A stretch of 64,000 nt of DNA, from NCBI GenBank assembly GCA_944385895.1, contig CALWYZ010000007.1, positions 33,489 through 97,488 of the forward strand, written 5' to 3'. Source of the DNA: an uncultured Clostridia bacterium (GTDB lineage: Bacteria > Bacillota > Clostridia > Oscillospirales > QAKW01). The notes beneath the pieces are model-generated. The model did no database searches. It was not told where the DNA came from and saw only the letters and a program-made list of their open reading frames with translations. Shown here one piece after another: positions 27,060-43,688 of the stretch. The stretch's first letter is position 1; each line of letters begins with the position of its first letter. Position numbers and translations under genes: made by a program.

Positions 27060-27641
27060 TTAATCCTGCATATCATCAGACTGAGAAACATCACTTTCAT
27101 CTGTTCTATTTTTCTTTTTATTCACTATGTTCCGTACAGCCTCGCCCGCAATCAAAAACAGAAGTCCGCTCACCGCCGCCTGTATGGCATTGAACGGTAC
27201 AGAATCGACAGCAGCCGTAGTCAGCGCCGCCTCCAGCTGTGACCCTGAAATAATAAGCAGCACGACCTCGCTTACATAGTATCCCGCAATGGTGACGATA
27301 CCCGAAAGGCAGATAAGTATATCCTGTACAAGTATATGTTTTGATGCCCGCATAAGCAGTTTTGCAGTCAACACAACAAGAGCCTTGACAATTATTGTCG
27401 GGATCACATAGATCAAACTGCCAAGCGTCAAATCGGCAAAAGCCGCTCCGACCGCAGCTGAGGCAACTGCATATGGCGTAGGCAGCAAAACAACCGCAAG
27501 ATATATCATCGCATCTCCGATATGTATATACGCTCCTCCACCTATCGGCGCAATGGCGCCTGTAAGAGTTGCGGCATAAATGAGCGCGGCAAAAAGCGCG
27601 GACTTTGTAAGCATATTCATTTTTTTGTTGCTCATAAACAA
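27060..27641 (-). CDS. ECF S component, probably vitamin B6-specific
   Basis: ALFAALI, GAYIHIGD, GAAFADL and PFNAIQ; coupled to pdxK. Confidence 0.75.
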   Translation of the reverse strand: MFMSNKKMNMLTKSALFAALIYAATLTGAIAPIGGGAYIHIGDAMIYLAVVLLPTPYAVASAAVGAAFADLTLGSLIYVIPTIIVKALVVLTAKLLMRASKHILVQDILICLSGIVTIAGYYVSEVVLLIISGSQLEAALTTAAVDSVPFNAIQAAVSGLLFLIAGEAVRNIVNKKKNRTDESDVSQSDDMQD

Positions 27642-28471
27642 TACTCCTTTAACAGTCCCAGTTTATCCTCAAACTGCATTCCGAATAATTTATCACCGTT
27701 ATTATTATATGTCTTCTGCGCGCAGATTTCAACAAAATCAGCAGCAATCTTTACTGACTCCGCTATACTTTTAGCGCTTAAAGCGACACCGCATATTACA
27801 CTTGCAAAAACATCTCCGGTTCCGCAGTATGTGACCGGAAACTTTTTATTGTCAGTAAGACAAACCTTCCCGTTTTGATATACCAAATTTGAAATACGCC
27901 CTTTTTCTATTTCCGACACGGACGCGTTTTCAAGACCGGTCACAACGATGCATTCCGCCCCCAGATTTTTGCACATTTCTTCCACCCGGTCAAGAGTGAT
28001 TTTCTTTTCAGGATAGTCTGTACCGCAAAGAGCGCAAAGCTCTGTAAGGTTTGGCGTTATTATGTTTGCCTTGCTTACCAGGTCGCGCATATGCACAAGA
28101 ATTTCCCTGCCGCAAGTATCATAAAGTACTCCGTTATCGCCCAGAACAGGGTCTACAAGCTTTAACGAGTTTTTCCCGAATTTGAGCATAAAATCATTAG
28201 TGATTTTTACCTGAGCAGCCGAACCGAAAAAACCGCTGTAAATAACATCGAACGTAAGACCTAGTTTTTCCCAGCTTTTTATATAATCCGGCATATGGTC
28301 GGTAAAATCATAAAAAGTATAGCTGTCAAATCCCGTATGGTTGGATAACACCGCAGTCGGAAGTACGGCGCACTCATAACCGCAGGCAGACACTATCGGC
28401 AGCGCCACGGTGAGTGAGCATCTGCCCACTCCCGATAAATCATTTATAAGTGCCGCCCGTTTCATGAGCAC
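27632..28471 (-). CDS. pdxK: pyridoxal/pyridoxamine kinase
   Basis: DLSGVGRCSL, LSNHTG, VDPVLGDNG, ITPNLTE and GTGDVFAS. Confidence 0.9.
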   Translation of the reverse strand: MLMKRAALINDLSGVGRCSLTVALPIVSACGYECAVLPTAVLSNHTGFDSYTFYDFTDHMPDYIKSWEKLGLTFDVIYSGFFGSAAQVKITNDFMLKFGKNSLKLVDPVLGDNGVLYDTCGREILVHMRDLVSKANIITPNLTELCALCGTDYPEKKITLDRVEEMCKNLGAECIVVTGLENASVSEIEKGRISNLVYQNGKVCLTDNKKFPVTYCGTGDVFASVICGVALSAKSIAESVKIAADFVEICAQKTYNNNGDKLFGMQFEDKLGLLKEYCL

Positions 28472-28552: not shown

Positions 28553-29626
28553 TTAATCCTGAGCCATTTTTGCCATATCGGCAAATTCCTCAAGTACCTC
28601 CTTGGAATAACCGAGTATAGACGGAAAACTGTCATGATAAACACCGTGAGAAAGCATGTCCCATGCATATTCCTTGATGTTTTCGTCGCTGTTGTCGTCA
28701 TATTGGAGTTTGTCACCGTCTATGCCGAGGATATCGGCAAATTCAGGGCTGTAATATCCGCTTTTCATCAATGAAATAATATTTTCTATCTGCTGCTGAC
28801 GCTGACTGTTACTGACCTTTTGTGCAGCGGTCTGACTGTTGATTATTTTATATTGCTGTTCAAGAGCCGCTATTTTTTCCTCATATTCACGGTCAAGTGC
28901 GTCCTTTTGCTGCTGATATTCAAACTGACGGTTTTCAAGATCCAGATCAGAAGCGTCCTTTTGCTGCTGATATTCGAATTGACGGTTTGCAAAATCACGG
29001 TCAAGCGCATCCTGCTCACGGTCATACTGAGTTTGCTGAGCGGCTGTAAGCCTGTCGGCACGATCTGTTGCCGAATCGTATAAAAGCTGCGCTATTTTTT
29101 CATTATTATCATAGGCAGACTGTGCGGCGTTTGCAGCTATTTCCCGCTTTGCATCAAGAGTATCACTGTTTATCTGGTTTCGCTGATTAATATAACTGTT
29201 GTCATAAGCCGCGCGCGTGCTTTCGGACAATCCGCCTGAAATACCGTCAGCCTTAAGCTGCTGGTCAAGACCGAGTGAGCTTTGAAGATTTTTAATGTAT
29301 GCCTCACGCAGTCTTGATCTTCCCTGTTCATCAGCCGCTGTCTGCTGATCGCTGAAATTCTGCTGACGGTTCTGTTCTGCCTGTTCAAGAGCGTTTGTGT
29401 ACGCGTTGACAGCCGATGCCGCAGTTGCCATGCCTGCGTCAATTACATTATACTCGCTTCCGTCCTCGCCGCCGCTGTACCCATAGCTATTGCGAATACT
29501 CTCCGCCTGATTATGAAGCTGCTTTTTCAAATCCTTATCATCAGTACTGCGCCACGCATTTTCAAGCTGCTCTATACGCTTCAGGTCTTCTTTGCTCATT
29601 AAATTGTTGTCAAAAATACTTGCCAT
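28553..29626 (-). CDS. putative virion ejection (DNA-injection) protein
   Basis: Q/A/D-rich predicted coiled coil with a duplicated NRQFEYQQQKDA; last gene of the podovirus-like module. Confidence 0.5.
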   Translation of the reverse strand: MASIFDNNLMSKEDLKRIEQLENAWRSTDDKDLKKQLHNQAESIRNSYGYSGGEDGSEYNVIDAGMATAASAVNAYTNALEQAEQNRQQNFSDQQTAADEQGRSRLREAYIKNLQSSLGLDQQLKADGISGGLSESTRAAYDNSYINQRNQINSDTLDAKREIAANAAQSAYDNNEKIAQLLYDSATDRADRLTAAQQTQYDREQDALDRDFANRQFEYQQQKDASDLDLENRQFEYQQQKDALDREYEEKIAALEQQYKIINSQTAAQKVSNSQRQQQIENIISLMKSGYYSPEFADILGIDGDKLQYDDNSDENIKEYAWDMLSHGVYHDSFPSILGYSKEVLEEFADMAKMAQD

Positions 29627-29637
29627 TTTTTTCTCCT

Positions 29638-31653
29638 TTACATAATTGTATATTCTATAAGAAAGCTGCGAAGAGTAAACGGCTGATCAAAATTATCATT
29701 TTCAAACCTCAGCTTTATACTCCTTCCGCGTTTGTGCAGCAGTCTTTTATATACGGCGTAGCTTTCGGGACGATCACTGTACGTAAATCTTGCGTAGCTG
29801 ATATTTTCATATCTGAACACCGACAATTCGCCGCCGTAATCCTTGATCACACGCCATTTGTCGTTATCAAACCTGGCGGAGATCCTGACATCGGTATTAA
29901 GCGGGGCGCCGTCAACAGCCATTTGAGATGATAAAAGCGCGCCCATACGCTCAAAGAACTTATTTACATGAAAACTTTGACAATATATGGGCGGGGTTTC
30001 CCAATATGCATTTATTGTACTGTATACTATCTGTCCGCTTGATATCTCCGTCTCATCACGATAATCGCTGTTTGAAATAAAGTTCTTATTGAAACGGAAA
30101 ATATACTCGCCATTTGAAAAATACAGATACCCCTGATTCACCCACATATATTTTGCATTAATGCCCTTCCATATGTACCCGTCATACTGACGGTATGAAA
30201 ACGGCTCATCTCCGCTTTTGAAATACTGTTTGGAATCAAGCAGATACAAAGTGTCGCTGCGGTTTGAAATGACAAGAAAATCGTCATATGCAAGCATTTT
30301 ACAGTCATCAAGCTGTTCCTTAAGCAAATGATAATTTATCATAGCGGATCTGTTCTGACAGCACCGTTCATCCAGAACACCGCTTGCCGTTATAGCGGAC
30401 ACTCCTTTTTCGGTCAGGTATACGACTTCATTGTCAAATACCTGGGTAAGCACGCCCTCAATCGGCTTTACAGTTCTGAATATTCCGCTGATCAAAAACA
30501 GTGCGTTTGGCAGAAAATCCACTGCTGTCTGCGGATCCTGAATATTTCCAGATACCATATACACATTATCATTACAGATAACAGCAAGGCGCGTATCATC
30601 GCCGGCAAGCGCAACTATCTGTGTGTCCGATTCGCCTATTTTAAGATAGTTTAGATCCGGAAAATATAAATGGTTATCCATATCCGAATAATAAATAATA
30701 TTCGGAACATCACTGTTGGCGGCAAGAAATACCCTGTCTTTATAGCCTGCCACGCCGTACATTGTCATACACCTGCATTTAGCGATTTTATAAGCGTTTT
30801 GGGCAAACGAGTCATATAAATAAATTATCTTCAGATTGTCCTCGCCCTCAACAGATGTTTTAGGCGGAGGCATAACGAATTTGACTGTTCTTCCGGCATA
30901 AGATAAAACCGCAGCAGGTTCCCATTCACCCAATGTGTTTTTTGTAAACGCATGAACAGTGGTGTCGGGCTTTATATCCATATGTACTGTATATTCATTG
31001 GCATCACCGTCACATATGAACTGCTCGCTTATATAGGGATTGAGTAGGTTCACAGCCTCATAAGAGCTGCCGGCGCCAGTAGGTGTGCAGCCAATAAAAA
31101 GCACAGGCAGATACAGACCTTCAAAAGGATTTGTATATTCTGTAACAGTAGTACTGCCGTCGCTGCCGATATAAAACACCTCTCCGTCTGCAACTCGATA
31201 TATAAACACAAAATCTCCGTTTAAAAAGAACATACAGTCCTCTGACTGCATTGCCAAGCAATCATCAAAATCATCCGGAAGATCAACTGTGATGGTATCT
31301 TCACTTTCAAAATCATAGCTGCTTGTACTTACAGCCATTACGTTGCCGGAGATAAAAAAATACAGTTCTTGTTCCGGTGATGAAAACTTAAATACTCCGC
31401 CCAGCGCACCAAACTGTTCCGATTTTTTGCAGATAGTATATCCGGGACGTTTGCTTATCTGTCCAAGTCCTGTGCGTATCATGTTTACGGTGCCCGGCTG
31501 TTCGCTTCCGTCATAATAGCTTATCCCATCGGCATGTGAAATTGAACGCTCATCTTCCGCAGATGTGCTATCGATGCCGTGAATGCTTGAGGTTTGAACG
31601 GTCCCCGACGAGGATACCGAGCCGCTCATGATATTATTTGAGACAAATCGCAT
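29638..31653 (-). CDS. putative tail nozzle/head-stabilisation protein (P22 gp10/T7 tubular B-like)
   Basis: 671 aa, beta-rich; begins GID...NM...KRPGY; follows the adaptor gene. Confidence 0.55.
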   Translation of the reverse strand: MRFVSNNIMSGSVSSSGTVQTSSIHGIDSTSAEDERSISHADGISYYDGSEQPGTVNMIRTGLGQISKRPGYTICKKSEQFGALGGVFKFSSPEQELYFFISGNVMAVSTSSYDFESEDTITVDLPDDFDDCLAMQSEDCMFFLNGDFVFIYRVADGEVFYIGSDGSTTVTEYTNPFEGLYLPVLFIGCTPTGAGSSYEAVNLLNPYISEQFICDGDANEYTVHMDIKPDTTVHAFTKNTLGEWEPAAVLSYAGRTVKFVMPPPKTSVEGEDNLKIIYLYDSFAQNAYKIAKCRCMTMYGVAGYKDRVFLAANSDVPNIIYYSDMDNHLYFPDLNYLKIGESDTQIVALAGDDTRLAVICNDNVYMVSGNIQDPQTAVDFLPNALFLISGIFRTVKPIEGVLTQVFDNEVVYLTEKGVSAITASGVLDERCCQNRSAMINYHLLKEQLDDCKMLAYDDFLVISNRSDTLYLLDSKQYFKSGDEPFSYRQYDGYIWKGINAKYMWVNQGYLYFSNGEYIFRFNKNFISNSDYRDETEISSGQIVYSTINAYWETPPIYCQSFHVNKFFERMGALLSSQMAVDGAPLNTDVRISARFDNDKWRVIKDYGGELSVFRYENISYARFTYSDRPESYAVYKRLLHKRGRSIKLRFENDNFDQPFTLRSFLIEYTIM

Positions 31654-32163
31654 TTACATATCCTCCATCCTCACCACCGTCATGACCGCCTGTCCTTCAT
31701 CAAACTGTACGATATTTGAAAGTATAGTATTGTACATATCCAAAAACGCATAGTATCTGCGCATATCGCTGTCTGACAGCACAGCGTATGCCGCTGCAAA
31801 ATACGGTATTGCGTTTTGAGCATGCTCACAAACCTCAAATTCGGTTTCAGGATCAGTCATCTCCGTAATTTCCGATGGGTATGCGTAATATCTTACGGTT
31901 ACCTCTTTGTCGCCTTCCGCTATAATATGTTTTTCATCGATCCTTTTAAAACTGACATTTGCGCCCAAGATCCGGTATGTATCGTCTGGTATTTGTGTAA
32001 CAACTCCGCCCAGAACTTTAAAGCTTTTCACTATCGGAGATACTGTTGTAGCGATTTGCTTTTGCGCGATATCATAATATCCGGCAAGCACTCCTTTCAT
32101 GTGATGGTAATCGTCCTCTCCGATAAGACCGCGTACCAGATCGTTAACCTGATTAATTGTCAT
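31654..32163 (-). CDS. putative head-tail adaptor
   Basis: 169 aa, MT..Q...VRGLIGE...DIAQKQIA and YYAYP...IPYFAA; lies after the capsid genes. Confidence 0.55.
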   Translation of the reverse strand: MTINQVNDLVRGLIGEDDYHHMKGVLAGYYDIAQKQIATTVSPIVKSFKVLGGVVTQIPDDTYRILGANVSFKRIDEKHIIAEGDKEVTVRYYAYPSEITEMTDPETEFEVCEHAQNAIPYFAAAYAVLSDSDMRRYYAFLDMYNTILSNIVQFDEGQAVMTVVRMEDM

Positions 32164-32185
32164 TTTGTACCTCCTTTTTTAAATC

Positions 32186-32211
32186 AGGGACGCGGATATA
32201 TCCGCGTCCCT
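32186..32211 (-). terminator. perfect 26-bp palindrome after capsid genes
   Basis: AGGGACGCGGATA|TATCCGCGTCCCT. Confidence 0.65.
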
Positions 32212-32217
32212 CTCTGT

Positions 32218-32574
32218 TTACGGAAGCTCGATTGCAGCTACCTTGATGTTGGCATTGTTTCCGGTAATAAGAATACATCCGCGGTTTTGTCCTGAAACAT
32301 TCATATATTTTCCGCTCTCTACCGTTATGACTTTTGTTTCACTCGATGCAAGTGTAACGGTAAGGTCACTTATTCCCTGGATACTGTCGCCGGCTTTAAT
32401 AGTCACGGTATTTTCAGCCGCGGTTGCGTTTTCCAGAATCAGAAGGATTCTTGCGTCCTCCTTATTTGAATAATCCACAAGTGCTCCGTCTGTTGCGTTT
32501 ATCGCAACAGCAGCGGGCATTGTTTCAGCCTTATTAAATTTAAGGCTTGTGTTTACAACAGATGTAGCAGCCAT
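32218..32574 (-). CDS. putative capsid decoration/cement protein
   Basis: 118 aa, A/T/V-rich beta protein immediately after the major capsid gene. Confidence 0.5.
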   Translation of the reverse strand: MAATSVVNTSLKFNKAETMPAAVAINATDGALVDYSNKEDARILLILENATAAENTVTIKAGDSIQGISDLTVTLASSETKVITVESGKYMNVSGQNRGCILITGNNANIKVAAIELP

Positions 32575-32592
32575 TATTATATCCTCCTTTTA

Positions 32593-33408
32593 TTATTTGT
32601 GTGCTTTGATTACATACAACTCTTTTGGACGGACTATCTTGCCGCCGTATACGTTAAGACCCTTTACCGCATCGGCAAAGTATGACTCGGGACGGTATGC
32701 CTCTGTCTCATCTATGCCGCCGGCAAAGGCTATAGCACGGTTGGTACGTACCAGCATGTAATCGTCAGTGCCGTCATTGTACAGGTTATTAGACATTTTA
32801 ACCTTGCAATTATCGTACATTCCGGCTATACCCTTACTTATCAGCTCATCATTGTTTGTCTTAAGCTCTGTCAAAGCGTCACGGAAAAGATGATAGAAAA
32901 ACGGCGACACAGTAATGGACACATTGTCCTCCACGTCAACATCGTTTTCTCTCAGCTTTAAAAGTGCCGCATCCACAAGCTCTTTAGCCTTCTGAGCAGA
33001 GTCTACTTTAGTAGATTCCGAGAAAAACTCGGCTTCCTTTGCAAGAGTTGCAACAAAGTGGTCACGGGTTCTTGCCATTTTAGCGGTAGCCTCTCTTATA
33101 AGCACTTCCATAAGCCCGTTTGTCGACTGTGCCTTATCGATATCATCGATCATAAAGTTAAACGCTTTTGCCTGGTCAATATCCAGGTGTATGCTTGTCC
33201 CCTCCACAGCTACAGGCGCAGGTATACCGTTTCCGGGTATGTAATCAAATATATCCGGTGCTCCTACACCGATTATTTTGACGCGTGCGCCTTGTTTTGC
33301 TTCGCCTTCAAACTGTGTCCAGCAATCCTCGACCAGTCTGCACTTCTTTTCAAGTTCGGTCTGAATAAATTTAGACCATATTACTGATTTAAAATTAGAA
33401 AAAGCCAT
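32593..33408 (-). CDS. major capsid protein (P22 gp5-like HK97 fold)
   Basis: F..VIWS, FEGE...G..VKI, LDIDQAKAFNF.IDDIDKAQ and E.YRPE..FADAVKGL.VYG.K..RP. Confidence 0.85.
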   Translation of the reverse strand: MAFSNFKSVIWSKFIQTELEKKCRLVEDCWTQFEGEAKQGARVKIIGVGAPDIFDYIPGNGIPAPVAVEGTSIHLDIDQAKAFNFMIDDIDKAQSTNGLMEVLIREATAKMARTRDHFVATLAKEAEFFSESTKVDSAQKAKELVDAALLKLRENDVDVEDNVSITVSPFFYHLFRDALTELKTNNDELISKGIAGMYDNCKVKMSNNLYNDGTDDYMLVRTNRAIAFAGGIDETEAYRPESYFADAVKGLNVYGGKIVRPKELYVIKAHK

Positions 33409-33421
33409 TTTTTATTCTCCT

Positions 33422-34021
33422 TTACAGTCTTTTAAGTGATTTCATTGCCTTCCTGAAAATAACCGGATTGTCAAGATCTCGCTTTGTAAGCCTGTCCAGT
33501 TCTTTCGAGCTGAAAAACTCACCGCTTGCATCCTCTGTGACGCCTACAGCCCCGGTTTCTGGCGGTCGTTTACATAAACTGCCCTCGTTTGCTGCTTTTA
33601 TTGCGGAAAAGGCTACCTTAGCGTCTACTCCGTTTTCTATCAGCTTTAAAAAATCTCCGCCAATGCTTTCAAGGTCTGAAACGCCCGGGTCGATCTGACG
33701 TATTGCCTCGAGATCCGCCTGCATCCTGTTCTCAACAAGCCTGGAAAGATAAATATCGCTTTGTTTTTTGTACTTATCGATATCCGCCGCGCGACTCAAC
33801 TGAGCACGCAGCCTGTCGATTTCCTTTTTATATGCCTCGTTTTCAAGCCGGATCTTTCTGAATCCCGAGTTTTCGGCGGCTGTTTGCTTACGGCCGGTGA
33901 GCTCCGTCTGTGTGACGGATACGGGCGTCCCCGTTCCGTCACCACCTTTACTGGCATTGCCGCCTTGTACAGGCTCCACGACTGCCTGCCGTGCGTCGTT
34001 TACCGCATTTAAATTTTCCAT
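33422..34021 (-). CDS. putative capsid scaffolding protein
   Basis: Disordered N-terminus, coiled coil, and a short helical C-terminus; directly upstream of the capsid gene. ATG 34021 chosen as start. Confidence 0.6.
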   Translation of the reverse strand: MENLNAVNDARQAVVEPVQGGNASKGGDGTGTPVSVTQTELTGRKQTAAENSGFRKIRLENEAYKKEIDRLRAQLSRAADIDKYKKQSDIYLSRLVENRMQADLEAIRQIDPGVSDLESIGGDFLKLIENGVDAKVAFSAIKAANEGSLCKRPPETGAVGVTEDASGEFFSSKELDRLTKRDLDNPVIFRKAMKSLKRL

Positions 34022-34025
34022 ATCT

Positions 34026-34646
34026 TTATCCCCATCTTTCAAGAAGTCTTTCAAATATGACCGCGGCTTCCTGACGTGTCAGATTTGCACGCGGATTGAA
34101 ATTATTATTTTCATCGCCAAGCATTATACCGGCCTCAGTCACCTTTTTGACAGCTTCTTTTGCCCAATTTGAAATGCTGGCTTCGTCATTATATTTTTCC
34201 ATAGTCTGTTCCTCCGAAATAATAAAGCTTTCGCTGTAATACACCCCGACTTTATTCGGTATGCCCAGATACGAGCTGGGGTCTATCGGACTGTTATTGC
34301 TGTCGTTAAGCTGAAAATGCAGATGCAGGCCGGTAACGTTTCCCGTATCGCCCATTTTAGCTATAACAGTAGTGCGGTTAACACTCTGTCCTACAGTAAC
34401 CCTTACGCTGCCCTCTTCCAGATGACAGAATATATGCCGGTTTCCGTTGCTGTCCCCGATAGATACATATCTGCCCCAGCCGCTTTCATCATACGCAATT
34501 ACTCGAACAGTCCCGTCGCAGGTCGCATAAACATCTCTGTTGTCCGCAACAAAGTCTATACCTTTGTGTTTGTCTTTCCAGTAAGACCCGTCCTGTCCGT
34601 AAGTCGCCGTAACGGAGAATTTGCCTGTAACAGGTAAATTTGTCAT
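34026..34646 (-). CDS. M23 endopeptidase endolysin with C-terminal SLH domain
   Basis: HKGID and HLHF zinc motifs; ISNWAKEAV...GIMLGD...FNPRANLTRQEAAV is an SLH motif. Confidence 0.85.
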   Translation of the reverse strand: MTNLPVTGKFSVTATYGQDGSYWKDKHKGIDFVADNRDVYATCDGTVRVIAYDESGWGRYVSIGDSNGNRHIFCHLEEGSVRVTVGQSVNRTTVIAKMGDTGNVTGLHLHFQLNDSNNSPIDPSSYLGIPNKVGVYYSESFIISEEQTMEKYNDEASISNWAKEAVKKVTEAGIMLGDENNNFNPRANLTRQEAAVIFERLLERWG

Positions 34647-35089
34647 TTTTTATCACCTCCGCCGTTATTGATTTCGTCTTTTGCATTCTTTAAAAATTTA
34701 GCTATCCAGCCCGGAAGCGCCTGATTATTACATCTATAAATATTTTCAACTATCGATATACTTTCTGTTACTGCAATATAAACGCATATCACGCTTGAAA
34801 ACAGTAAGTTTTTAGGTACGCTGAGCCCGACTGACGATGCGGCATAAGGTATGAACACATCAAGAAACGTCCCAAACGCCAGTGCCAGAAACAGCACTAC
34901 CTTTTTTATAACGCCCTTATATGCCTTCTGACTTGACAGTCCGCTGCCATCCATGATGGATGCCAGAATACCCGTCGCTATGTCAAACAGCACAACTGCG
35001 CCGACGATCGTATACGCAAGTCCGTATAGTTTAAAATATGCTAAAACAGCGCCGCCCGCTATTGACAGCAGGTATTTTATATTACTCAT
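34643..35089 (-). CDS. phage holin (holin_4 / toxin-secretion type)
   Basis: D..TG...SS...KG..KK and ESISIVEN...P; three TMs; overlaps the endolysin start. Confidence 0.85.
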   Translation of the reverse strand: MSNIKYLLSIAGGAVLAYFKLYGLAYTIVGAVVLFDIATGILASIMDGSGLSSQKAYKGVIKKVVLFLALAFGTFLDVFIPYAASSVGLSVPKNLLFSSVICVYIAVTESISIVENIYRCNNQALPGWIAKFLKNAKDEINNGGGDKK

Positions 35090-35124
35090 TATCTTTTTCC
35101 CTCTCCAAATTATTTTTAACGCCG

Positions 35125-36789
35125 CTAAATGAGCTGCCCTTCTGCCGTATCAGAAAGTTTTGCAGACAGTTGATTTGTCATATTCTGCAAACTAACAGCA
35201 AGATTTTGCAGATCATTGAGCGTGGCGACGGGAGAGTAGATCCATTCTCCCGTTCTTAAAACGGCTCTGCCGAAGTCGGATATATTTGTCACATACATAG
35301 GGCCCGACACTCCTTGGCTTTCAAAGTATGAACATAAATCCACACTTCCGTTTATCCATTCAGCAAGAGTCCATGTTTTTGTTGAATAATTATTATCGGC
35401 GTTGCAGATAAAATATCCGCTTGAGCCGCCTACAATATATATCGGATCAACAATACTGCTTCCGCTCTCAGCAAGAGCAAGATCAAACAGTCGTATTCCC
35501 GATCCGTAAGTTAGGGTACTGTCGGTAAGCCCGTGCGACTGTATCGCAGATACCGCCGACTCAACATTGCCGAAAGCACACGGCAGTGCAGGAGATATGC
35601 ACGAATCTGCGGCAGTACCGCTTGATATCTCTTCCGACAGACTGCGACTGCGAAGCTTTATGACACCGTCCTTACGGTAAAATATACTGTCATTTACAAG
35701 ACCCGTGGGGTCAGTATCTGTATTAATTATTATCTGTTCGCTGTCAGCATCAAGCTTTTGGGCAAGCATGCTGTCGGTTTGTGCAGTAGTATACGTGTCT
35801 ATTTCATCAAACTTCTGCTGTACATACTTTTCTGTGGCTATCTTTTCGTAAACAGTTTCCTTAGCTCTGAAAACCTGTTTTGCAAAATCAGATACATTTT
35901 GAATAATAATATCCGAATATCCCTGCTGTTCAAAATGTCCCAACACATCTGCCGTACCTGCCGCCCATACTGAACTGCTCCATGCTTTATGATCGGTTTT
36001 CTGATCATAGTTATCTAAATAATATAAGGTCCTTACATTAACAATATATAATTTATCAACAAGCGTTCCATCCTTATTGTATAAATCCATAAGATGTATA
36101 CAAGAGGTGTTGTTTTCCGTCTTATCAGTAAGCCCGTGCGACTCAATTGCGCTGTCAAGATCATCTGAGCTGTCATAAACGCACAGTGCGGGAGACAGAT
36201 AAACCTCAGCTTTATCGCCGTCTGAGGGGGCGGATATATATCCGTTTTTATAAAGCTTGAGCTGAGTATCCTCTCTGCAAATAAACGCTGTGTCCTGATC
36301 AGAGGGCTGAGAGCTCACATCCTGTATCACATTTTTACTGTCATTGTCGGTCTTGAGATCCAGCAAGGAGTCGGTCTGTGTTTTGGTATATATCTGTGTT
36401 TTATCATATACATTCTGTATATCAGCCTTTTGTGACAGCATACTGTCCGTCTGAGTTTTGGTATATACCTGTGAGGCGTCTGCTTTAAGATCGAGGTATC
36501 CGTCCGCCTCACTTTTATTATACGTCTCAGATTTTTTATAGACACTGTCCGCGTCCGCTTTTGTATCGAGCAAACCGTCGGTTTCCGTCTTTGTGTATAC
36601 ACTTTGGGCGGGCGCTGCGGCGTTTGCGGTATCTACAAGCTCATTTATTTTCGGAATGATTATCTGTCTGGGCAGATAATCGAAAAACTCTTTCATTTCC
36701 TGTGCGGTTTTTCCCGGTACGTCAGATTGATTTACATGATACCGTTTTTGATTAAAAAGTTCAGTATCATTGATTTTCGATATCGACAT
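35125..36789 (-). CDS. putative fibre/receptor-binding virion protein
   Basis: Repeated YTK.[EQ]TD..L..KAD fibre motifs and an internally duplicated ~190-aa domain. Confidence 0.55.
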   Translation of the reverse strand: MSISKINDTELFNQKRYHVNQSDVPGKTAQEMKEFFDYLPRQIIIPKINELVDTANAAAPAQSVYTKTETDGLLDTKADADSVYKKSETYNKSEADGYLDLKADASQVYTKTQTDSMLSQKADIQNVYDKTQIYTKTQTDSLLDLKTDNDSKNVIQDVSSQPSDQDTAFICREDTQLKLYKNGYISAPSDGDKAEVYLSPALCVYDSSDDLDSAIESHGLTDKTENNTSCIHLMDLYNKDGTLVDKLYIVNVRTLYYLDNYDQKTDHKAWSSSVWAAGTADVLGHFEQQGYSDIIIQNVSDFAKQVFRAKETVYEKIATEKYVQQKFDEIDTYTTAQTDSMLAQKLDADSEQIIINTDTDPTGLVNDSIFYRKDGVIKLRSRSLSEEISSGTAADSCISPALPCAFGNVESAVSAIQSHGLTDSTLTYGSGIRLFDLALAESGSSIVDPIYIVGGSSGYFICNADNNYSTKTWTLAEWINGSVDLCSYFESQGVSGPMYVTNISDFGRAVLRTGEWIYSPVATLNDLQNLAVSLQNMTNQLSAKLSDTAEGQLI

Positions 36790-38263
36790 TGTTTTGTCCT
36801 CCTCTGCTCTTTATTATCTGCTCCAGTTTTGACTTTGGCACAGAGCTGTCATCATCCAGCGCCCAAACATACTCCTCAAATGTAAGATGACCCATACTGA
36901 AAAGCTGGCTTAGTGACTGCTCTCTTGCGTATTTTGAAAACGGATTTGTACTGGATACATCAACACGGACCTGCGGCTGGAGGATATCAAGCTGTCCGGC
37001 GCTGATTTTCTCTCCGCCCGGAAGCGTAATTCCCTCAGGGTTATAAACAATCCACTGTCTGTACCAGATCATCGCAATGTCTTCCACCAAACGTCTAAAC
37101 GCAGCTGTCTGCTCATTAAGCGGTATCGCAGCCTGGTCACGTACGGCAATAATAGCGGTGCCGGAGGCCTTAGTCGGATCTATATTTCCCAGTGAAGCGT
37201 CGCCCGCACCGGCAAGCTGACGAGTCGTTATAAGCAGCTCCTCGCTCAGAGCCTTGGCATCGGGAGCCATCGGTGACGGAGTAAGATAATTTACCGCATC
37301 CTTTACCGAATTTATACTTCCGCCCTCTACTTCTATTGCAGTTCCGACTTCAGTCAGCGCCTTCGGATTGGCAATACGGTCACCTGCGTATATCAGACGC
37401 GAATATGCGGTAAGCTTGGCATTTACAAGGCGTCTTGCAAGATTGCGGTTTATCTCTATCTGATTTGGTATAACAGGCAATACCTCACCGTAGCCCCGTG
37501 CTGTTGAACGCTTTCTTGAACAAATCAGAGACGCCACAGGATAACAATTCAATCCCTTAACTACTTGTCTTGGCTGATATACCACTGTTCTTGTTGAACG
37601 GGTAAAATACAGATCGCCGTTTACCAGCTCCAGCTTTAAAAGGCTTACGCATTTGTCCCGTCCCAGATCATCCAAGTCCTCATCAGGTAAAATCGTCATA
37701 TAGATCTCTTTGGATATTCCGTTTTTCTGCGCCTGCGCCCGGATATCTTTAACTGACTTGCGTTCTCTGATTAATATGTATGGCTGTGCCGATATGTCCG
37801 GATTGGACTCATCCGCAAGAAAAACATCTGTGCGTTCAAGTACCTGACACGACCCGGCTCCGTCATAAAAATAGATATAACTGTCACCCGATATCATAGC
37901 GGCCTTAACTACATCCCAGCATTTTGTATCCATTTTGAGACGTTCCCACTGCTGTGCGGCGATGCGCGACAGCCCGGCGCATACACGCTGCATGCGGTCG
38001 TCAGTGATAGGAGCAGAATAGTTTATGCTCATATCGTTCATTGCAACCATAGCAGTTTTATACTTGACAAGCGGGGCAATAAAATTATATACAGGCAGCT
38101 GTTCATCTCCGCTCTCAAGTCCGTACCACTGATCTCCCTCATAAAAGCGGTATGCACGAACGGTATCGTCATCAATACCCATTTTCATATGAGTATCAAG
38201 ACAAGTCTCATATTCACCCCAGATCTGCCCTGCCGTCACTATTGTGTCATACAGCTTGCTCAT
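36767..38263 (-). CDS. portal protein (P22-like)
   Basis: FYEGDQW, P.YNFI, GYGEV...IPNQIEIN and ASGTAI; follows TerL. Confidence 0.8.
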   Translation of the reverse strand: MSKLYDTIVTAGQIWGEYETCLDTHMKMGIDDDTVRAYRFYEGDQWYGLESGDEQLPVYNFIAPLVKYKTAMVAMNDMSINYSAPITDDRMQRVCAGLSRIAAQQWERLKMDTKCWDVVKAAMISGDSYIYFYDGAGSCQVLERTDVFLADESNPDISAQPYILIRERKSVKDIRAQAQKNGISKEIYMTILPDEDLDDLGRDKCVSLLKLELVNGDLYFTRSTRTVVYQPRQVVKGLNCYPVASLICSRKRSTARGYGEVLPVIPNQIEINRNLARRLVNAKLTAYSRLIYAGDRIANPKALTEVGTAIEVEGGSINSVKDAVNYLTPSPMAPDAKALSEELLITTRQLAGAGDASLGNIDPTKASGTAIIAVRDQAAIPLNEQTAAFRRLVEDIAMIWYRQWIVYNPEGITLPGGEKISAGQLDILQPQVRVDVSSTNPFSKYAREQSLSQLFSMGHLTFEEYVWALDDDSSVPKSKLEQIIKSRGGQNNVDIENQ

Positions 38264-38448
38264 CTGCGGTCACCGCCTTTGTATTTATCCGTTTTGCCGT
38301 ATGCTTCAATATTCTGCAATAAAATATTAAGCTGTTCTATCTCGTTGTGGGCAGCACCGTGTATGCTCTTTTTATATCTATGCTTTTTAATAATAAAACA
38401 TACTGCACCGGCAGCAAGTATTATGCCGGTAAAAACCAATACTTCCAT
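38260..38448 (-). CDS. small membrane-anchored phage protein
   Basis: GAGGAGG RBS and an N-terminal TM; overlaps the portal start. Confidence 0.6.
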   Translation of the reverse strand: MEVLVFTGIILAAGAVCFIIKKHRYKKSIHGAAHNEIEQLNILLQNIEAYGKTDKYKGGDRR

Positions 38449-38458
38449 TTTTCCTCCT

Positions 38459-39817
38459 CTATATTATTTTGAACTGTTTTTCACTGTCAAAAGGGGACAG
38501 TTTTTTCTCAAAACTAAAGCCGTATTTATATTCGGGCGGCGGTATGTCTGCCGGTCTTGGCTGACCTGAAACAAAGTAACGTATAGCGTCAGGAGCATGA
38601 GTAAGTTCATGCGGGACGCTTGCACAATCAGATGGATTTTGACTGTCACACTGCAGCATAGAAATGCAGCGGATAAGATTGATGCAACAGTCAAAAATCC
38701 TAAGCCGAGCCGTCGGCTTTTGCTGTTCATCCTGAGTTATATGCAGCCATTCCTTGACAGCAAGCCAACCTGAAATCCTTGAGGACGATACACGCGTCAG
38801 ATTTATTCCGTTTTCAGCAAACAGTGAGGCTATACTTTTACCGCTGTCTTTTTGTCTGTTCCAGAGATCGGGCGGTGCGAAAACCGCACGGATCTTGTCG
38901 CCGCCGCAAAGTTCTTTTAATCTTTGGGCCGCCTGCGACACTATAAGCCCGCTTCCTCCGTTGTCTTTGCCCTCATACACCTCAGCTGTCACATATGCAT
39001 TGCAAAAACCGTCAACAGCAATTTTATAAGCGGCAAGCATATCAAGTCCGTAATCGAGACAGATGTATTTTCTCCACTCGTCAGGAATCTCAAATGCCGG
39101 CATAACATGAATCTGCCGGTCAAATTCTTCAAAAAATTTGCCGTCAGTGATGTCCCAGCATCCGTCAAGCAGCGCTTTTCTGTCCTTTTTACTCAGAGCT
39201 TCAAGGCGCTTGATATACATCGGATCTGATTTCATCAAAAAGCCGTTATCAGTGATTTTTGCGGGGATGAATATTCTTGTCATTCCTGCGATCTTAACCG
39301 CTCTGTCGGCAGGGCAACAGTCAATAAACCGTTTTTTTACCCAGCTGTGACCTATACCCCCGGGATTTGTACTGCTTTTGACGGACTTGGGATAACCATT
39401 GACACCTCTGCAGCGTGAAAGCAAATACAGATACATACTTTCTGTAAAATGAGTCAGCTCGTCAAAACGTATGACATCATATTCAGCCGACTGATACCTA
39501 TACACATCCTGCTCATTATCACAATAGGCAAAGTCTATCAGCGATCCGTTTACAAACGTCCCCGTGTGATCGGCTTTCCGATAGCTGTAAACCTGAGAGG
39601 GATATAGCGAAAGAGATGTACGTATCAGCGACTTTTCAAGTTCGGGAAGTGTACGCCTAAAAATTATCTGCTTTGATGCCGGATATTTCATTGCGTACAG
39701 GAATGCATCTATTATCTGTCCGTAACTTTTTCCGCCGCCCGCCGCACCTCCGTAAAGCACTTCGAATTCATAAGTGTCACAGAATTTTTTTTGACGCTCG
39801 GTAACGGAAATGTCCAT
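38459..39817 (-). CDS. terL: terminase large subunit
   Basis: Walker A GGAAGGGKS, Walker B IRFDELTH, STNPGG, and nuclease motifs LDYG and HAPDAIRY. Confidence 0.93.
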   Translation of the reverse strand: MDISVTERQKKFCDTYEFEVLYGGAAGGGKSYGQIIDAFLYAMKYPASKQIIFRRTLPELEKSLIRTSLSLYPSQVYSYRKADHTGTFVNGSLIDFAYCDNEQDVYRYQSAEYDVIRFDELTHFTESMYLYLLSRCRGVNGYPKSVKSSTNPGGIGHSWVKKRFIDCCPADRAVKIAGMTRIFIPAKITDNGFLMKSDPMYIKRLEALSKKDRKALLDGCWDITDGKFFEEFDRQIHVMPAFEIPDEWRKYICLDYGLDMLAAYKIAVDGFCNAYVTAEVYEGKDNGGSGLIVSQAAQRLKELCGGDKIRAVFAPPDLWNRQKDSGKSIASLFAENGINLTRVSSSRISGWLAVKEWLHITQDEQQKPTARLRIFDCCINLIRCISMLQCDSQNPSDCASVPHELTHAPDAIRYFVSGQPRPADIPPPEYKYGFSFEKKLSPFDSEKQFKII

Positions 39818-40056
39818 CAGTCAACAACCCTGATATTAACCTTAAATTCGCCGGCTGACGGACTGTCCTGATAATCCAGAATCTCTCTGACAAGCTTTAC
39901 TGCATCCGGTGCGCCGCCAAGCGCACGTTTTATTATTGCTGCCGCTATTGCCTGCTGCACTGTAAAACTTGGACCGAGAATTGCTTCTTCCGGATCACTT
40001 ATCTTTTTCCTGCATAGCTTTTTGACTGTCGCGTCAAATGTTTTAGTCCTTGCCAT
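39817..40056 (-). CDS. short terminase small subunit-like protein
   Basis: 79 aa, coupled to terL (TGATG); AIAAAIIKRALGG...AVKLV helix pair and C-terminal FKVNIRVVD strand. Confidence 0.6.
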   Translation of the reverse strand: MARTKTFDATVKKLCRKKISDPEEAILGPSFTVQQAIAAAIIKRALGGAPDAVKLVREILDYQDSPSAGEFKVNIRVVD

Positions 40057-40083: not shown

Positions 40084-40115
40084 ATTTTAAACTAAAAAAC
40101 CGAACAAAACGAACA
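40084..40115 (-). promoter_or_regulatory. putative activator-dependent promoter of the virion operon
   Basis: Minus strand reads TGTTCG-TTT-TGTTCG-N11-TAAAAT-N9-AAAGGGGG-N10-ATG; no TTGACA. Confidence 0.55.
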
Positions 40116-40248: not shown

Positions 40249-40324
<76 letters not shown>

Positions 40325-40390: not shown

Positions 40391-40518
40391 ATGTCATTTT
40401 TCAAGGTGGAGTTCAAAAGATATCATTTCCCCAAAACGACCTTTGGGGAGGACTTGAACTAAATACCTAGGCTTTTAGGGGCAGATTTTGCGATTATTTT
40501 CGCAGCGTCTGCCTCTTT

Positions 40519-43622: not shown

Positions 43623-43688
43623 TGTCATCTGTATGGACGCATAAGTCAACAAGCAGCACAGATATCTTTTTCGGTGCGACTTGCCAAG

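What the first reader, a model, noticed from the sequence alone, without database searches (positions are those of the whole stretch)
28553..40056. Candidate podovirus-type gene transfer agent: an intact 11.5-kb virion and lysis operon with no phage life-cycle genes
Seen: 13 co-oriented, tightly packed ORFs in the order terS, terL, small membrane protein, portal, fibre, holin, endolysin, scaffold, capsid, decoration, adaptor, nozzle, ejection protein. TerL catalytic motifs are intact and no frameshifts or gene debris are apparent. There is no integrase, repressor, replication gene or att repeat. The block abuts pdxK on one side and the 5' (promoter) side of tRNA-fMet on the other, so it is not a tRNA 3' insertion. 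Base composition looks host-like by eye. Known: GTAs such as RcGTA and VSH-1 are host-controlled structural clusters that package host DNA and cannot replicate themselves. Inference: a domesticated short-tailed particle system in a clostridial lineage, unlike the tailed siphovirus-like RcGTA. The clean boundaries argue against random prophage decay.
Basis: partly seen in the sequence, partly recalled or inferred. Interest (0 to 1): 0.92.

Follow-up and report, generated by a model that had tools for sequence, protein, structure and literature searches.

The report
Domesticated short-tailed phage particle operon
An 11.5-kb operon for a complete short-tailed phage particle plus lysis genes, with no phage life-cycle genes, has been inherited vertically under strong selection in a family of uncultured gut Clostridia, which makes it a strong candidate gene transfer agent of a kind first reported only recently.

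Summary
Thirteen co-oriented minus-strand genes (28553-40056) encode a TerS-like protein, TerL, portal, fibre, holin, M23/SLH endolysin, scaffold, capsid, adaptor and nozzle. They sit between pdxK and the 5' side of the only tRNA-fMet, with no integrase, repressor, replication gene or att repeat.

- TerL homologues occur in 35 of 36 same-family genomes, against capsid homologues in 21 of 399 class-wide genomes.
- In all 11 assessable loci of the genus the cluster abuts pdxK and/or the ECF-S gene.
- TerL, portal and capsid trees match the RpoB tree at supported nodes.
- dN/dS is 0.005-0.20 for all genes in the two least saturated pairs, and dS equals that of the flanking host genes.

Related true prophages (about 37-39 kb) carry an integrase, a repressor, a Terminase_2 TerS and a giant polyvalent protein. 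The cluster instead has a 79-aa DUF5681-like TerS without a DNA-binding domain, and a genome-unique GTTCG-repeat promoter shared by two genera.

Packaging and transfer of host DNA remain untested. A podovirus-like GTA-like element (FpGTA, Faecalibacterium) is already published, so this is a new member of a known kind.

The parts
40101..40115 (-). Direct repeat TGTTCG-TTT-TGTTCG at the -35 position of the operon promoter
   Evidence: The core GTTCGTTTTGTTCG (at most 1 mismatch) lies upstream of the TerS-like gene in 10 of the 11 g1-genus species aligned; G006 has a variant (GATCGGTTTGTTCG). It occurs once in the 1.95-Mb genome at up to 1 mismatch. A related GTTCG-N4/5-GT[TG]CG plus TATAAT lies at the cluster promoter in 5 of 6 g2-genus loci. 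It was not found upstream of TerS in 9 phage-like loci.
40084..40089 (-). -10-like TAAAAT box, followed by a GGGGG ribosome-binding site
   Evidence: Read from the sequence. An A/T-rich box at this position is kept in the alignment of 11 species. No transcript data are available.
39817..40056 (-). 79-aa TerS-like protein (DUF5681-like, no DNA-binding domain detected)
   Evidence: No Pfam or PHROG hit of its own. An HMM of 11 genus orthologues hits the proteins in the same slot in g2 (E 6e-5 to 1e-2 at Z=1e6), in G053 (2e-3) and weakly in g3 (0.08-0.14). The g3 protein matches DUF5681 at 31.8 bits (cut-off 27.5) and the G053 protein at 26.9 bits. dN/dS is 0.06-0.09. Complex with TerL: weak support, 0.35 against a best control of 0.02.
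38459..39817 (-). Large terminase (TerL)
   Evidence: PHROG 979 at 2e-49; Terminase_6N. Walker A G23-S31, D119-E120, T150-N151-P152, D255 and D410 are invariant in 12 sequences. dN/dS is 0.05-0.08.
38260..38448 (-). 62-aa protein with an N-terminal transmembrane helix
   Evidence: Hydropathy 2.3 over residues 1-19. Conserved in the closest species (84% in L033, about 50% in L013/L014). dN/dS is 0.19-0.44.
36767..38263 (-). Portal protein (P22-like)
   Evidence: PF16510 at 28.6 bits; PHROG 156 at 1.6e-14. dN/dS is 0.02-0.03.
35125..36789 (-). Tail fibre / receptor-binding protein in a hypervariable slot
   Evidence: Fibre-type repeats and a duplicated C-terminal domain. Hit to a T5-type L-shaped fibre, 8hqz, at E 7.6e-5. 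Across the genus the slot holds 554-, 311-, 225-, 513- and 564-aa proteins, some with no detected similarity to g5, and is empty in L036 and L038.
34643..35089 (-). Holin
   Evidence: Phage_holin_4_1 at 1.4e-18. dN/dS is 0.03-0.06.
34026..34646 (-). Endolysin: M23 peptidase with a C-terminal SLH cell-wall anchor
   Evidence: Peptidase_M23 at 3e-22 and SLH at 7e-13. dN/dS is 0.06.
33422..34054 (-). Putative scaffolding protein (TTG start uncertain)
   Evidence: Assigned by its position directly before the capsid gene. No family hit. Orthologues occupy the same slot in all related clusters and phages. dN/dS is 0.07-0.16.
32593..33408 (-). Major capsid protein
   Evidence: PHROG 267 at 1e-35; Phage_capsid_4. 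It is 79-98% identical across the genus. dN/dS is 0.005-0.02.
32218..32574 (-). 118-aa conserved virion-module protein of unknown role
   Evidence: PHROG 24894 (unknown function) at 4e-7 and PHROG 16194 ('tail protein') at 7e-4. It is missing from several genus members. The 'decoration' label is not verified.
32186..32211 (.). Palindromic hairpin with an 11-bp stem between g10 and the adaptor gene
   Evidence: Terminator-like scan hit. Its function was not tested.
31654..32163 (-). Probable head-to-tail adaptor
   Evidence: SU10_adaptor at 20.9 bits, below the cut-off of 27. PHROG 13046 at 2.5e-12. It lies directly before the nozzle gene.
29638..31653 (-). Tail nozzle (T7 gp12 / P22 gp10 class)
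   Evidence: AF2 model with pLDDT 83.2 and pTM 0.82. The top 29 Foldseek PDB hits are podovirus nozzle or tail-hub chains, E 1e-17 to 6e-11.
28553..29626 (-). 357-aa helical coiled-coil protein (internal/ejection protein or tail plug; unresolved)
   Evidence: AF2 model with pLDDT 84 and helices at 64-126 and 135-266. No PDB match at E<=1e-3 and no sequence hit to solved structures. It is kept in related phages directly before their giant ORF. In L038 two small ORFs stand in its place.
27632..28471 (-). Host flank: pdxK-like kinase, followed by the ECF-S component at 27060-27641
   Evidence: Phos_pyr_kin at 6.5e-18; ECF-ribofla_trS at 1.8e-13. pdxK and/or the ECF-S gene abuts the cluster in 11 of 11 assessable genus loci.
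40249..40324 (+). Host flank: initiator tRNA-Met (CAT), transcribed away from the cluster
   Evidence: ARAGORN. Single copy in the assembly. It is adjacent in G000 and L033, 2-3.5 kb away in G004 and G007, and 4.5 kb upstream in one g2 lineage.

Best explanation
This is a host-domesticated, podovirus-derived particle operon of the gene-transfer-agent type.

Proposed mechanism:
1. One promoter drives all 13 genes. Its -35 region is replaced by a TGTTCG direct repeat, so it probably depends on an activator.
2. TerL, helped by a 79-aa TerS-like protein that lacks the DNA-binding domain found in the TerS of related phages, fills capsids with DNA by headful packaging without a specific pac site. 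The packaged DNA would therefore be mostly host DNA.
3. The capsids are built from portal, scaffold and a 271-aa capsid protein.
4. An adaptor, a T7/P22-type nozzle, a helical plug or ejection protein and a variable fibre complete a short tail.
5. A holin and an M23/SLH endolysin lyse the producing cell and release the particles.

Shown here: gene content, intactness, absence of life-cycle genes, vertical inheritance, purifying selection, and the contrast with complete related prophages.

Inferred: non-specific packaging, activator dependence, particle release and delivery of DNA to recipients.
For: Content:
- A complete head, short-tail and lysis gene set.
- No integrase, repressor, replication gene or att repeat.
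- All head and tail genes are single copy in the genome.

Distribution:
- TerL homologues occur in 35 of 36 same-family genomes: g1 11/11, g2 18/18, g3 6/7.
- They occur in 13 of the 24 genomes that stand for the order's other families, one each.
- Capsid homologues occur in only 21 of 399 class-wide genomes.

Synteny: pdxK and/or ECF-S lies directly downstream in 11 of 11 assessable g1 loci. Five g2 species share another conserved locus.

Co-divergence:
- In the TerL tree the g1 copies form one clade (100/97).
- The internal order ((G000,G002),(G004,G007)), G009, and the group (G003,G005,G010) match the RpoB tree at every supported node.
- The portal and capsid trees agree.

Selection:
- dN/dS is 0.005-0.20 for every gene in the two least saturated pairs.
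- The flanks give pdxK 0.10 and ECF-S 0.12.
- Cluster dS is 0.57-1.59, against 0.93 and 1.48 for the flanks.

Contrast with phages:
- The G022 element is a prophage of about 37 kb with an integrase, a CI-like repressor, a Rep-like protein, a Terminase_2 TerS and a 2120+-aa polyvalent protein.
- The phage-like contig L044 has the same 11 genes in the same order as this cluster, plus a Terminase_2 TerS and a giant ORF.

Shared derived traits of the chromosomal clusters:
- A short DUF5681-like TerS.
- A GTTCG-repeat promoter that is unique in the genome.

TerS-like with TerL: weak support, score 0.35 against a best control of 0.02. That mark was reached by 58 of 80 solved complexes and 2 of 110 mismatched pairs. 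At 0.60 or under, only 7 of those 80 solved complexes and both of the mismatches that passed lie there. The runs agree in at least 64% of their contacts, and the partner's pLDDT is at least 73.

Precedent: FpGTA in Faecalibacterium is a podovirus-like cluster with a TerS lacking a DNA-binding domain, 40-nm particles and 8.4-8.9-kb host fragments. GTA-like packaging was also seen in Christensenellaceae MAGs, with no cluster identified (PMC12946183, section 9 read).
Against: - No particle, packaging, expression or transfer data exist for this organism.
- Head capacity is unknown. Related prophages are 37-39 kb and their capsid proteins are 55-60% identical, so the head could hold more than the 11.5-kb operon. 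That would be unlike classical GTAs.
- The activator is unidentified. The promoter could equally respond to a factor from an infecting phage.
- Deep history is not clean. In the TerL tree, phage-like second copies nest between the g1 clade and the g2/g3 clades, and g3 groups with g2 rather than with g1. One ancient domestication is therefore not proven.
- The tRNA-side flank varies within the genus.
- One genus member (L038) lacks g13, two lack the fibre slot, and one family genome (G019, 94% complete) has neither TerL nor the capsid gene.
- PBSX shows that such particles can package host DNA without delivering it.
Confidence: 0.7

Rival explanations
1. A PBSX-like domesticated particle. The cell makes DNA-containing particles and lyses, but the particles do not deliver DNA. 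The selected benefit would be killing of competitors, release of DNA or nutrients, or biofilm matrix.
For: The same evidence of domestication applies. The fibre slot is hypervariable, as expected for surface recognition under diversifying pressure. The authors of the FpGTA paper raise the same caveat for their element (PMC12946183, Discussion passage read).
Against: The known killing particles are contractile or flexible tail devices. A podovirus head with an intact terminase, portal and nozzle under strong selection points to DNA packaging and ejection as the selected activity. None of this is decisive.
Confidence: 0.15
2. A phage-responsive element. The operon is silent until a related podophage infects. 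A late activator from that phage then fires the GTTCG-repeat promoter, and the particles either parasitise the phage or abort its infection, giving defence or satellite-like piracy without mobility.
For: The promoter lacks a canonical -35 and carries a repeat typical of activator sites. Related phages infect these genera. No regulator gene lies in the operon.
Against: The repeat was not found upstream of TerS in 9 phage-like loci. G000 itself has no related phage head genes. The element has no integrase or replication module and has stayed at one locus throughout the genus.
Confidence: 0.08
3. A decaying cryptic prophage remnant kept by chance, or kept for a single useful gene such as the lysin.
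For: It lacks life-cycle genes. A few members have lost g13, g10 or the fibre gene. An orphan XhlA-holin-M23 cassette elsewhere in the genome shows that remnants do exist.
Against: All 13 reading frames are intact. dN/dS is 0.005-0.20 even though synonymous sites are near saturation between species. The cluster is present in 35 of 36 family genomes and co-diverges with RpoB.
Confidence: 0.04
4. A mobile satellite (of the PICI or capsid-forming PICI type) or an active phage whose integration and replication genes were not recognised.
For: It is compact and encodes its own capsid and terminase. IMG/VR holds a 9.6-kb 'viral' contig that consists of such a cluster.
Against: Host genes lie directly on both sides. 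There are no att repeats. No contig in 4 other runs joins across the cluster. The locus is fixed and the trees are congruent. The cluster encodes its own tail, which capsid-forming PICIs do not.
Confidence: 0.03

Closest known systems
FpGTA of Faecalibacterium prausnitzii (Borodovich et al., Nat Commun 2026, PMC12946183; preprint 10.1101/2024.11.15.623857)
   Same: Both are podovirus-like particle clusters in gut Clostridia. Both run TerS (without a DNA-binding domain), TerL, portal, scaffold, capsid and short-tail genes, have no replication or integration genes, and are near-ubiquitous in the host clade. Both are about 10-11 kb.
   Different: FpGTA is split into a 10.5-kb head operon and a 5.5-kb fibre/lysis operon about 125 kb away. 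Here the lysis and fibre genes sit inside one operon. The host family is different. Sequence homology to FpGTA could not be tested because its sequences could not be fetched. FpGTA has EM, proteomics and packaged-DNA data, whereas this cluster has none.
RcGTA and other alphaproteobacterial GTAs
   Same: Vertically inherited phage-derived head, tail and packaging genes under purifying selection. The TerS lacks DNA-binding specificity. Lysis releases the particles. Expression is controlled by the host.
   Different: RcGTA is siphovirus-like and multilocus, and it is regulated by CtrA/GafA (recalled). Its components show no specific relationship to those here. Here the tail is short and the regulator is unknown.
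PBSX of Bacillus subtilis
   Same: A Gram-positive domesticated phage-like element at a fixed locus. It packages host DNA and lyses the producing cell.
   Different: PBSX has a contractile tail, is about 28 kb, and acts as a killing particle without DNA delivery (PMC12946183 passages; otherwise recalled).
Temperate podophages of the same bacterial family (G022:C11 prophage of about 37 kb; L044 contig; VE202-08 prophage / IMG/VR UViG of 39,106 bp)
   Same: TerL, portal, scaffold, capsid, adaptor, nozzle and g13 are homologous (TerL 43-62%, capsid 55-70% identity). L044 has the identical gene order, including the internal lysis cassette.
   Different: The phages carry an integrase, a CI-like repressor, replication-associated genes, a Terminase_2 or HTH-type TerS and a 1,700-2,100+-aa polyvalent protein. 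They lack the GTTCG-repeat promoter.
Capsid-forming PICIs / phage satellites
   Same: Compact islands that encode their own capsid, portal and terminase.
   Different: Satellites have an integrase, replication and regulatory modules, are mobile and take their tails from a helper (recalled; cited in 10.64898/2026.07.08.737213, passages read). None of these features is present here.

Membership tests
Gene transfer agent (viriform) | Phage-derived particle genes in the chromosome, without integration, replication or lysogeny functions | tested here: met
   a complete head, tail and lysis set, no integrase, repressor or replication gene, no att repeat, and host genes on both sides.
Gene transfer agent (viriform) | Vertical inheritance with the host and purifying selection | tested here: met
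   Present in 35 of 36 family genomes. Conserved locus in 11 of 11 assessable genus loci. Trees congruent with RpoB. dN/dS 0.005-0.20, with dS equal to that of the flanks.
Gene transfer agent (viriform) | Particles package essentially random host DNA and do not enrich their own locus | not testable with these tools
   Only assembled contigs of public runs were available, and their depth cannot rank regions. The short TerS without a DNA-binding domain is indirect support only.
Gene transfer agent (viriform) | Head capacity smaller than the encoding gene set | not testable with these tools
   The T number is unknown. Related prophages are 37-39 kb.
Gene transfer agent (viriform) | Expression under host control | tested here: inconclusive
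   The repeat promoter is unique in the genome, conserved in two genera, and absent from the phage-like relatives examined. The regulator was not identified.
Gene transfer agent (viriform) | Delivery of packaged DNA to recipient cells | not testable with these tools
   This needs culture work.
FpGTA (Faecalibacterium podovirus-like GTA-like element) | Sequence homology to FpGTA proteins (capsid RCH50849.1, portal RCH50851.1) | not testable with these tools
   No tool fetches these records. The searches that might have surfaced them gave no identifiable Faecalibacterium locus. The fetched class-wide loci have GC of 0.51 at most.
FpGTA (Faecalibacterium podovirus-like GTA-like element) | Short-tailed gene set: portal, adaptor and nozzle, with no tube, sheath or tape measure | tested here: met
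   Nozzle fold, P22-like portal, and no tail-tube or tape-measure families among the 13 genes.
FpGTA (Faecalibacterium podovirus-like GTA-like element) | TerS without an obvious DNA-binding domain | tested here: met
   The 79-aa protein has no HTH or Terminase_2 match, whereas the phage relatives have Terminase_2 or HTH-type TerS proteins of 135-217 aa by ORF length, the longest start probably over-extended.
FpGTA (Faecalibacterium podovirus-like GTA-like element) | Two separate operons (head/packaging; fibre/lysis) | tested here: not met
   The fibre, holin and endolysin genes lie inside the single operon. The only other lysis cassette, on contig C14, is an orphan.
Temperate prophage | Integrase, repressor/lysogeny switch, replication genes and att sites | tested here: not met
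   None is present in or beside the cluster. All are present in the related G022 prophage.
PICI / capsid-forming PICI satellite | Integrase, replication module, mobility between sites, dependence on helper tails | tested here: not met
   No integrase or replication gene. Fixed locus across the genus. Its own nozzle, adaptor and fibre.
PBSX-like defective phage | Contractile myovirus-type tail | tested here: not met
   No sheath, tube or baseplate families. The nozzle fold is of the podovirus type.

The most novel reading that the evidence does not exclude
The operon is an ancient GTA that arose before two or more genera of an uncultured gut Clostridia family diverged. It is driven by a dedicated activator-dependent promoter (a GTTCG direct repeat) and packages DNA through a minimal DUF5681-type TerS.

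On this reading it is the missing genetic determinant of the GTA-like whole-genome packaging already seen in faecal virus-like-particle fractions for Christensenellales-type bacteria. Podovirus-type GTAs would then be a widespread, repeatedly or anciently domesticated route of gene flow in animal gut Clostridia.
Probability: 0.45. Interest if true: 0.75.

Novelty: new member of a known kind. Interest (0 to 1): 0.62.

Why it matters
GTAs have been characterised in very few lineages. In gut Firmicutes only PBSX and the recently reported FpGTA have gene clusters assigned.

This locus adds three things.
- It is a second podovirus-type candidate, and it has unusually complete evolutionary evidence: family-wide presence, a fixed locus, co-divergence with RpoB, and strong purifying selection on every gene.
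- It shows a clear before-and-after contrast with intact related prophages from sister genomes.
- It has two concrete handles for experiments: a genome-unique repeat promoter and a truncated TerS.

The locus could explain GTA-like packaging signals in gut viromes for which no genes have been assigned. It also shows that virus databases hold such clusters as 'phage' contigs.

Tried and rejected

- The link to FpGTA could not be tested.
  - The capsid search returned 2558 proteins, but the 120 listed are all at least 59% identical and none bears a useful name.
  - The Atlas search gave only generic capsid clusters.
  - The class-wide search plus 10 fetched loci gave no high-GC locus; the highest GC was 0.51.
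  - MT836592.1 is a 9588-bp contig from human faeces with GC 0.59. It has TerL 44%, portal 46% and capsid 37% identity and the same gene order. However, it carries a full-length Terminase_2 TerS, so it does not fit the published description of FpGTA.
  - The supplements of PMC12946183, which list fragment lengths and the scaffolds of the Christensenellaceae events, are closed and may bear on this question.

- Sequence searches of solved structures found nothing for the nozzle or for g13.

- The g13 fold search found no match at E<=1e-3. Rows to T7 ejected-state chains at E of about 1 are not evidence.

- Public runs gave little.
  - No RNA holder is listed.
  - All four runs laid are contigs, so their depth cannot rank regions.
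  - Contigs in X2 and X4 bridge the pdxK-g13 junction, and no contig joins across the cluster.
  - The stretch 40850-44000 is uncovered in X2 and X4.

- The generic promoter scan gave a 9-of-12 hit at 40172-40145, which is not conserved among species.

- No direct repeats bracket the cluster.

- A single ancestral locus for g1 and g2 was considered, because a tRNA-fMet lies upstream in one g2 lineage as well. It is absent from the other four g2 loci checked, so this remains weak.

- An origin-proximal position was considered, because the mnmE-jag-yidC-rnpA block lies 6.5-10 kb away. No dnaA was seen among the window genes scanned, so this was not pursued.

- Rows dropped: gene-pair combinations with fewer than 40 aligned codons or with no hit were skipped, and saturated pairs print no ratio. 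In some searches, hits covering less than 40-50% of the query were not listed.

Full report
OBSERVATION

The window is G000:C7:33489-97488 of a 1.95-Mb, 30-contig genome. Between 28553 and 40056 lie 13 minus-strand ORFs that overlap by up to 29 nt or are separated by at most 54 nt.

Family searches name most of them:
- TerL: PHROG 979 at 2e-49; Terminase_6N.
- A P22-like portal: PF16510, 28.6 bits against a cut-off of 26.1.
- A holin: Phage_holin_4_1 at 1e-18.
- An M23 peptidase with an SLH anchor: 3e-22 and 7e-13.
- A capsid protein: PHROG 267 at 1e-35.

The 671-aa protein was folded from a 16-row alignment, giving pLDDT 83 and pTM 0.82. Its best 29 Foldseek hits in the PDB are podovirus nozzle or tail-hub proteins, including T7 gp12, P22 gp10, PhiM1 and SU10, at E 1e-17 to 6e-11. 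The short-tail reading is therefore structurally supported.

The gene before the nozzle matches SU10_adaptor only below threshold, at 20.9 against 27 bits. The 554-aa protein has fibre-type repeats, an internal duplication and a hit to a T5-type L-shaped fibre at E 7.6e-5. The 62-aa protein has an N-terminal membrane helix.

The last gene (357 aa) folds as long helices. It has no significant structural match, so 'ejection protein' is only one of two plausible roles; the other is a tail plug. 'Decoration' for the 118-aa protein is not supported by any hit.

The TerL catalytic residues are invariant in 12 aligned sequences.

BOUNDARIES

- Downstream lie a pdxK-like kinase and an ECF-S component, followed by a GH127 enzyme and uvrB/uvrA.
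- Upstream, 192 nt away and transcribed divergently, is the only initiator tRNA-Met of the assembly.
- None of the 11 Phage_integrase hits of the genome lies within the window.
- No direct repeat brackets the cluster.
- Cluster GC is 44.2% against 40.9% for the genome, similar to neighbouring core genes.

DISTRIBUTION

- A TerL homologue is present in 49 of 61 related genomes. Within the family that is 35 of 36 (g1 11/11, g2 18/18, g3 6/7). Among the genomes that stand for the order's other 24 families, one each, it is 13 of 24.
- The one family genome without it (G019, 94% complete) also lacks the capsid gene.
- As a control, capsid homologues at E<=1e-8 occur in only 21 of 399 genomes drawn evenly from the class.
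- The capsid family is large in metagenomes, with 2558 proteins at E<=1e-10. The phage collection, however, has nothing above 37% identity.
- Record titles of relatives name uncultured Clostridia or Eubacteriales MAGs from animal and human guts. Public runs holding this DNA are mostly chicken-gut metagenomes.

SYNTENY

In every genus-g1 locus with enough downstream flank, the cluster is followed directly by pdxK and ECF-S, or by ECF-S alone in L039 and L043. These 11 loci are G000, G007, G003, G001, G010, L033, L036, L037, L038, L039 and L043. Loci seen through two tools are counted once.

Two further genomes cannot be judged because the contigs end inside the cluster. The TerS-side flank varies:
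- The tRNA-fMet is adjacent in G000 and L033.
- It is 2-3.5 kb away, behind inserted genes, in G004 and G007.
- It is cut by a contig end in L038.
- It is absent from the other loci.

Five g2 species carry a related compact cluster at a different locus that is conserved within g2.

Within the cluster the fibre slot is hypervariable. It holds proteins of five different lengths, some with no detected similarity to g5, and is empty in two loci. The g10 gene is missing in several species, and L038 has two small ORFs in place of g13.

CO-DIVERGENCE

RpoB identity to G000 is 92% for G004 and G007, 88-89% for the rest of g1, and 76-79% for g2 and g3. TerL follows the same ranks: 79%, 63-70% and 53-60%.

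In a careful TerL tree the g1 copies form one clade (100/97). Its topology is ((G011,(G003,G005,(G001,G010))),(G006,(G009,((G000,G002),(G004,G007))))). The RpoB tree gives (G008,(G005,G003,G010),(G011,G006,(G009,(G000,(G004,G007))))). Only the weakly supported place of G011 differs. The portal and capsid trees repeat the pattern.

SELECTION

By the Nei-Gojobori method, dN/dS in the two least saturated pairs is as follows.

| Gene | G007 vs G004 | G000 vs L033 |
|---|---|---|
| capsid | 0.005 | 0.010 |
| portal | 0.025 | 0.018 |
| TerL | 0.084 | 0.052 |
| TerS-like | 0.063 | 0.088 |
| holin | 0.063 | 0.026 |
| endolysin | 0.056 | 0.063 |
| scaffold | 0.156 | 0.065 |
| adaptor | 0.048 | 0.103 |
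| nozzle | 0.112 | 0.050 |
| g13 | not available (contig end) | 0.050 |
| fibre | 0.202 | 0.101 |
| g10 | 0.096 | 0.085 |
| g3 | 0.190 | 0.196 |

- The highest value in any pair is 0.44, for g3 over 46 codons.
- In the G000 vs L033 pair the flanks give pdxK 0.10 and ECF-S 0.12.
- dS in that pair is 0.57-1.59 for cluster genes, against 0.93 and 1.48 for the flanks. Cluster and flanks therefore have the same age.
- More distant pairs are saturated.

WHAT THE RELATED PHAGES HAVE THAT THIS CLUSTER LACKS

Some genomes hold second copies at 54-62% TerL identity.
- The copy in G022 is a complete prophage of about 37 kb between host genes. It has an integrase (PF00589), a CI-like repressor, PcfJ, DUF3102, YopX and Rep-like proteins, a Terminase_2 TerS and a 2120+-aa polyvalent protein with LPD38 and PBECR3 domains.
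- The contig L044 (the second copy in G010) has the same 11 structural and lysis genes in the same order as this cluster, plus a Terminase_2 TerS and a 2017+-aa ORF. In all three trees it is the sister of the whole g1 clade.
- A related predicted prophage in IMG/VR is 39,106 bp.

TWO TRAITS THAT SET THE CHROMOSOMAL CLUSTERS APART

First trait: the protein in the TerS slot is only 76-84 aa in g1, g2 and g3.
- The g3 protein matches DUF5681 above threshold (31.8 bits), and that of another family (G053) reaches 26.9 bits.
- An HMM of the g1 proteins finds the g2, G053 and, weakly, g3 proteins, and none of the Terminase_2 proteins.
- A complex prediction with TerL gave weak support: 0.35 against a best control of 0.02. 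That mark was reached by 58 of 80 solved complexes and 2 of 110 mismatched pairs. At 0.60 or under, only 7 of those 80 solved complexes and both of the mismatches that passed lie there. The runs agree in at least 64% of contacts, and the partner's pLDDT is at least 73.

Second trait: about 45 nt upstream of the start codon lies the repeat TGTTCGTTTTGTTCG, followed by a TAAAAT-like box, in otherwise unalignable intergenic DNA.
- The repeat core is kept, with at most one mismatch, in 10 of the 11 g1 species aligned; G006 has a variant.
- It occurs once in the G000 genome at up to one mismatch.
- The g2 clusters carry GTTCG-N4/5-GT[TG]CG plus TATAAT in 5 of 6 loci.
- Nine phage-like loci show nothing similar upstream of TerS.
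- The relaxed pattern has 20 hits in the whole genome.
- No canonical -35 is present, which suggests dependence on an activator. That is an inference.

COMPARISON WITH WHAT IS KNOWN

Borodovich et al. (PMC12946183; abstract, sections 9 and 26 and searched passages read; supplements closed) describe FpGTA in Faecalibacterium.
- A 10.5-kb operon carries a TerS without a DNA-binding domain, TerL, portal, scaffold, capsid and short-tail genes.
- A separate 5.5-kb operon carries fibre and lysis genes.
- The particles are 40 nm and carry 8.4-8.9-kb host fragments.
- The authors call it the first podovirus-like GTA-like element.
- They also report GTA-like packaging in Christensenellaceae MAGs (3 of 25 events) without naming a cluster.

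A 2026 preprint (10.64898/2026.07.08.737213; passages read) proposes further GTA candidates in murine gut Clostridia. A search for 'gene transfer agents' together with 'FpGTA' found only the first paper. Two other searches found no description of this cluster.

I could not fetch the FpGTA sequences, so homology to it is untested.

VERDICT

- Firmly shown: this is a domesticated, vertically inherited, selectively maintained particle operon.
- Inferred: it packages host DNA non-specifically and transfers it.
- Open: whether g1, g2 and g3 go back to one domestication. They share the TerS type, and g1 and g2 share the promoter. Against that, in the TerL tree phage-like copies nest among them, and g3 joins g2 against the host tree.

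Noticed in passing
G000 contig C14:14231-15573 (L106:10231-11573), outside the window: An orphan lysis cassette (XhlA-like 96 aa, holin 149 aa, M23/SLH lysin 205 aa) with no head or tail genes nearby and an integrase about 8 kb away. In several phage-like and genus loci the holin and lysin match this pair better than the cluster's own pair, so it may be the remnant of a related prophage.
   Followed up: partly
window 40400-47000: A low-GC stretch (33-37%) next to the tRNA-fMet carries two AraC-type regulators, a GH10 xylanase, an EamA transporter and a YitT-family protein. Positions 40850-44000 are not covered by contigs of two of the four other runs laid, so this side may vary between strains.
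   Followed up: partly
rpoB matches in genus g3 (G013, G015, G017, G021, G023, G025): In 6 of 7 g3 genomes the RpoB match contains one in-frame TAA, and G013 also has a TGA. One g2 genome (G020) and two genomes of other families (G043, G056) show the same. The cause (a split gene, an insertion or read-through) was not examined.
   Followed up: no
L098 (IMGVR_UViG_3300022660_003761, 9620 bp) and L103 (MT836592.1, 9588 bp): Two entries in virus collections, each about 9.6 kb, consist of little more than a cluster of this type. L098 is a g1-genus cluster without flanks. Such records may be domesticated clusters filed as phages.
   Followed up: partly
L011 (G005) and L009/L016/L042 (G001), promoter region: In G005 the whole repeat promoter is present twice, 263 nt apart. 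In G001 the repeat has three units instead of two.
   Followed up: no
window 32186-32211: A perfect hairpin with an 11-bp stem (8 G-C pairs) lies between g10 and the adaptor gene, just after the head genes. It could set the ratio of head to tail transcripts.
   Followed up: no
window 46519-50366: The mnmE-jag-yidC-rnpA block, which usually lies near the replication origin in Firmicutes (recalled), is 6.5-10 kb from the cluster. Cumulative GC skew reaches its minimum near 57 kb. No dnaA was seen among the window genes scanned.
   Followed up: partly
L026 (G053:C19) and L116 (G211:C4): Genomes of other families carry clusters with the same gene order. L026 and L116 also have a short protein in the TerS-like slot, and L026 has host-like genes about 12 kb downstream. 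Domesticated copies may therefore exist beyond this family.
   Followed up: partly
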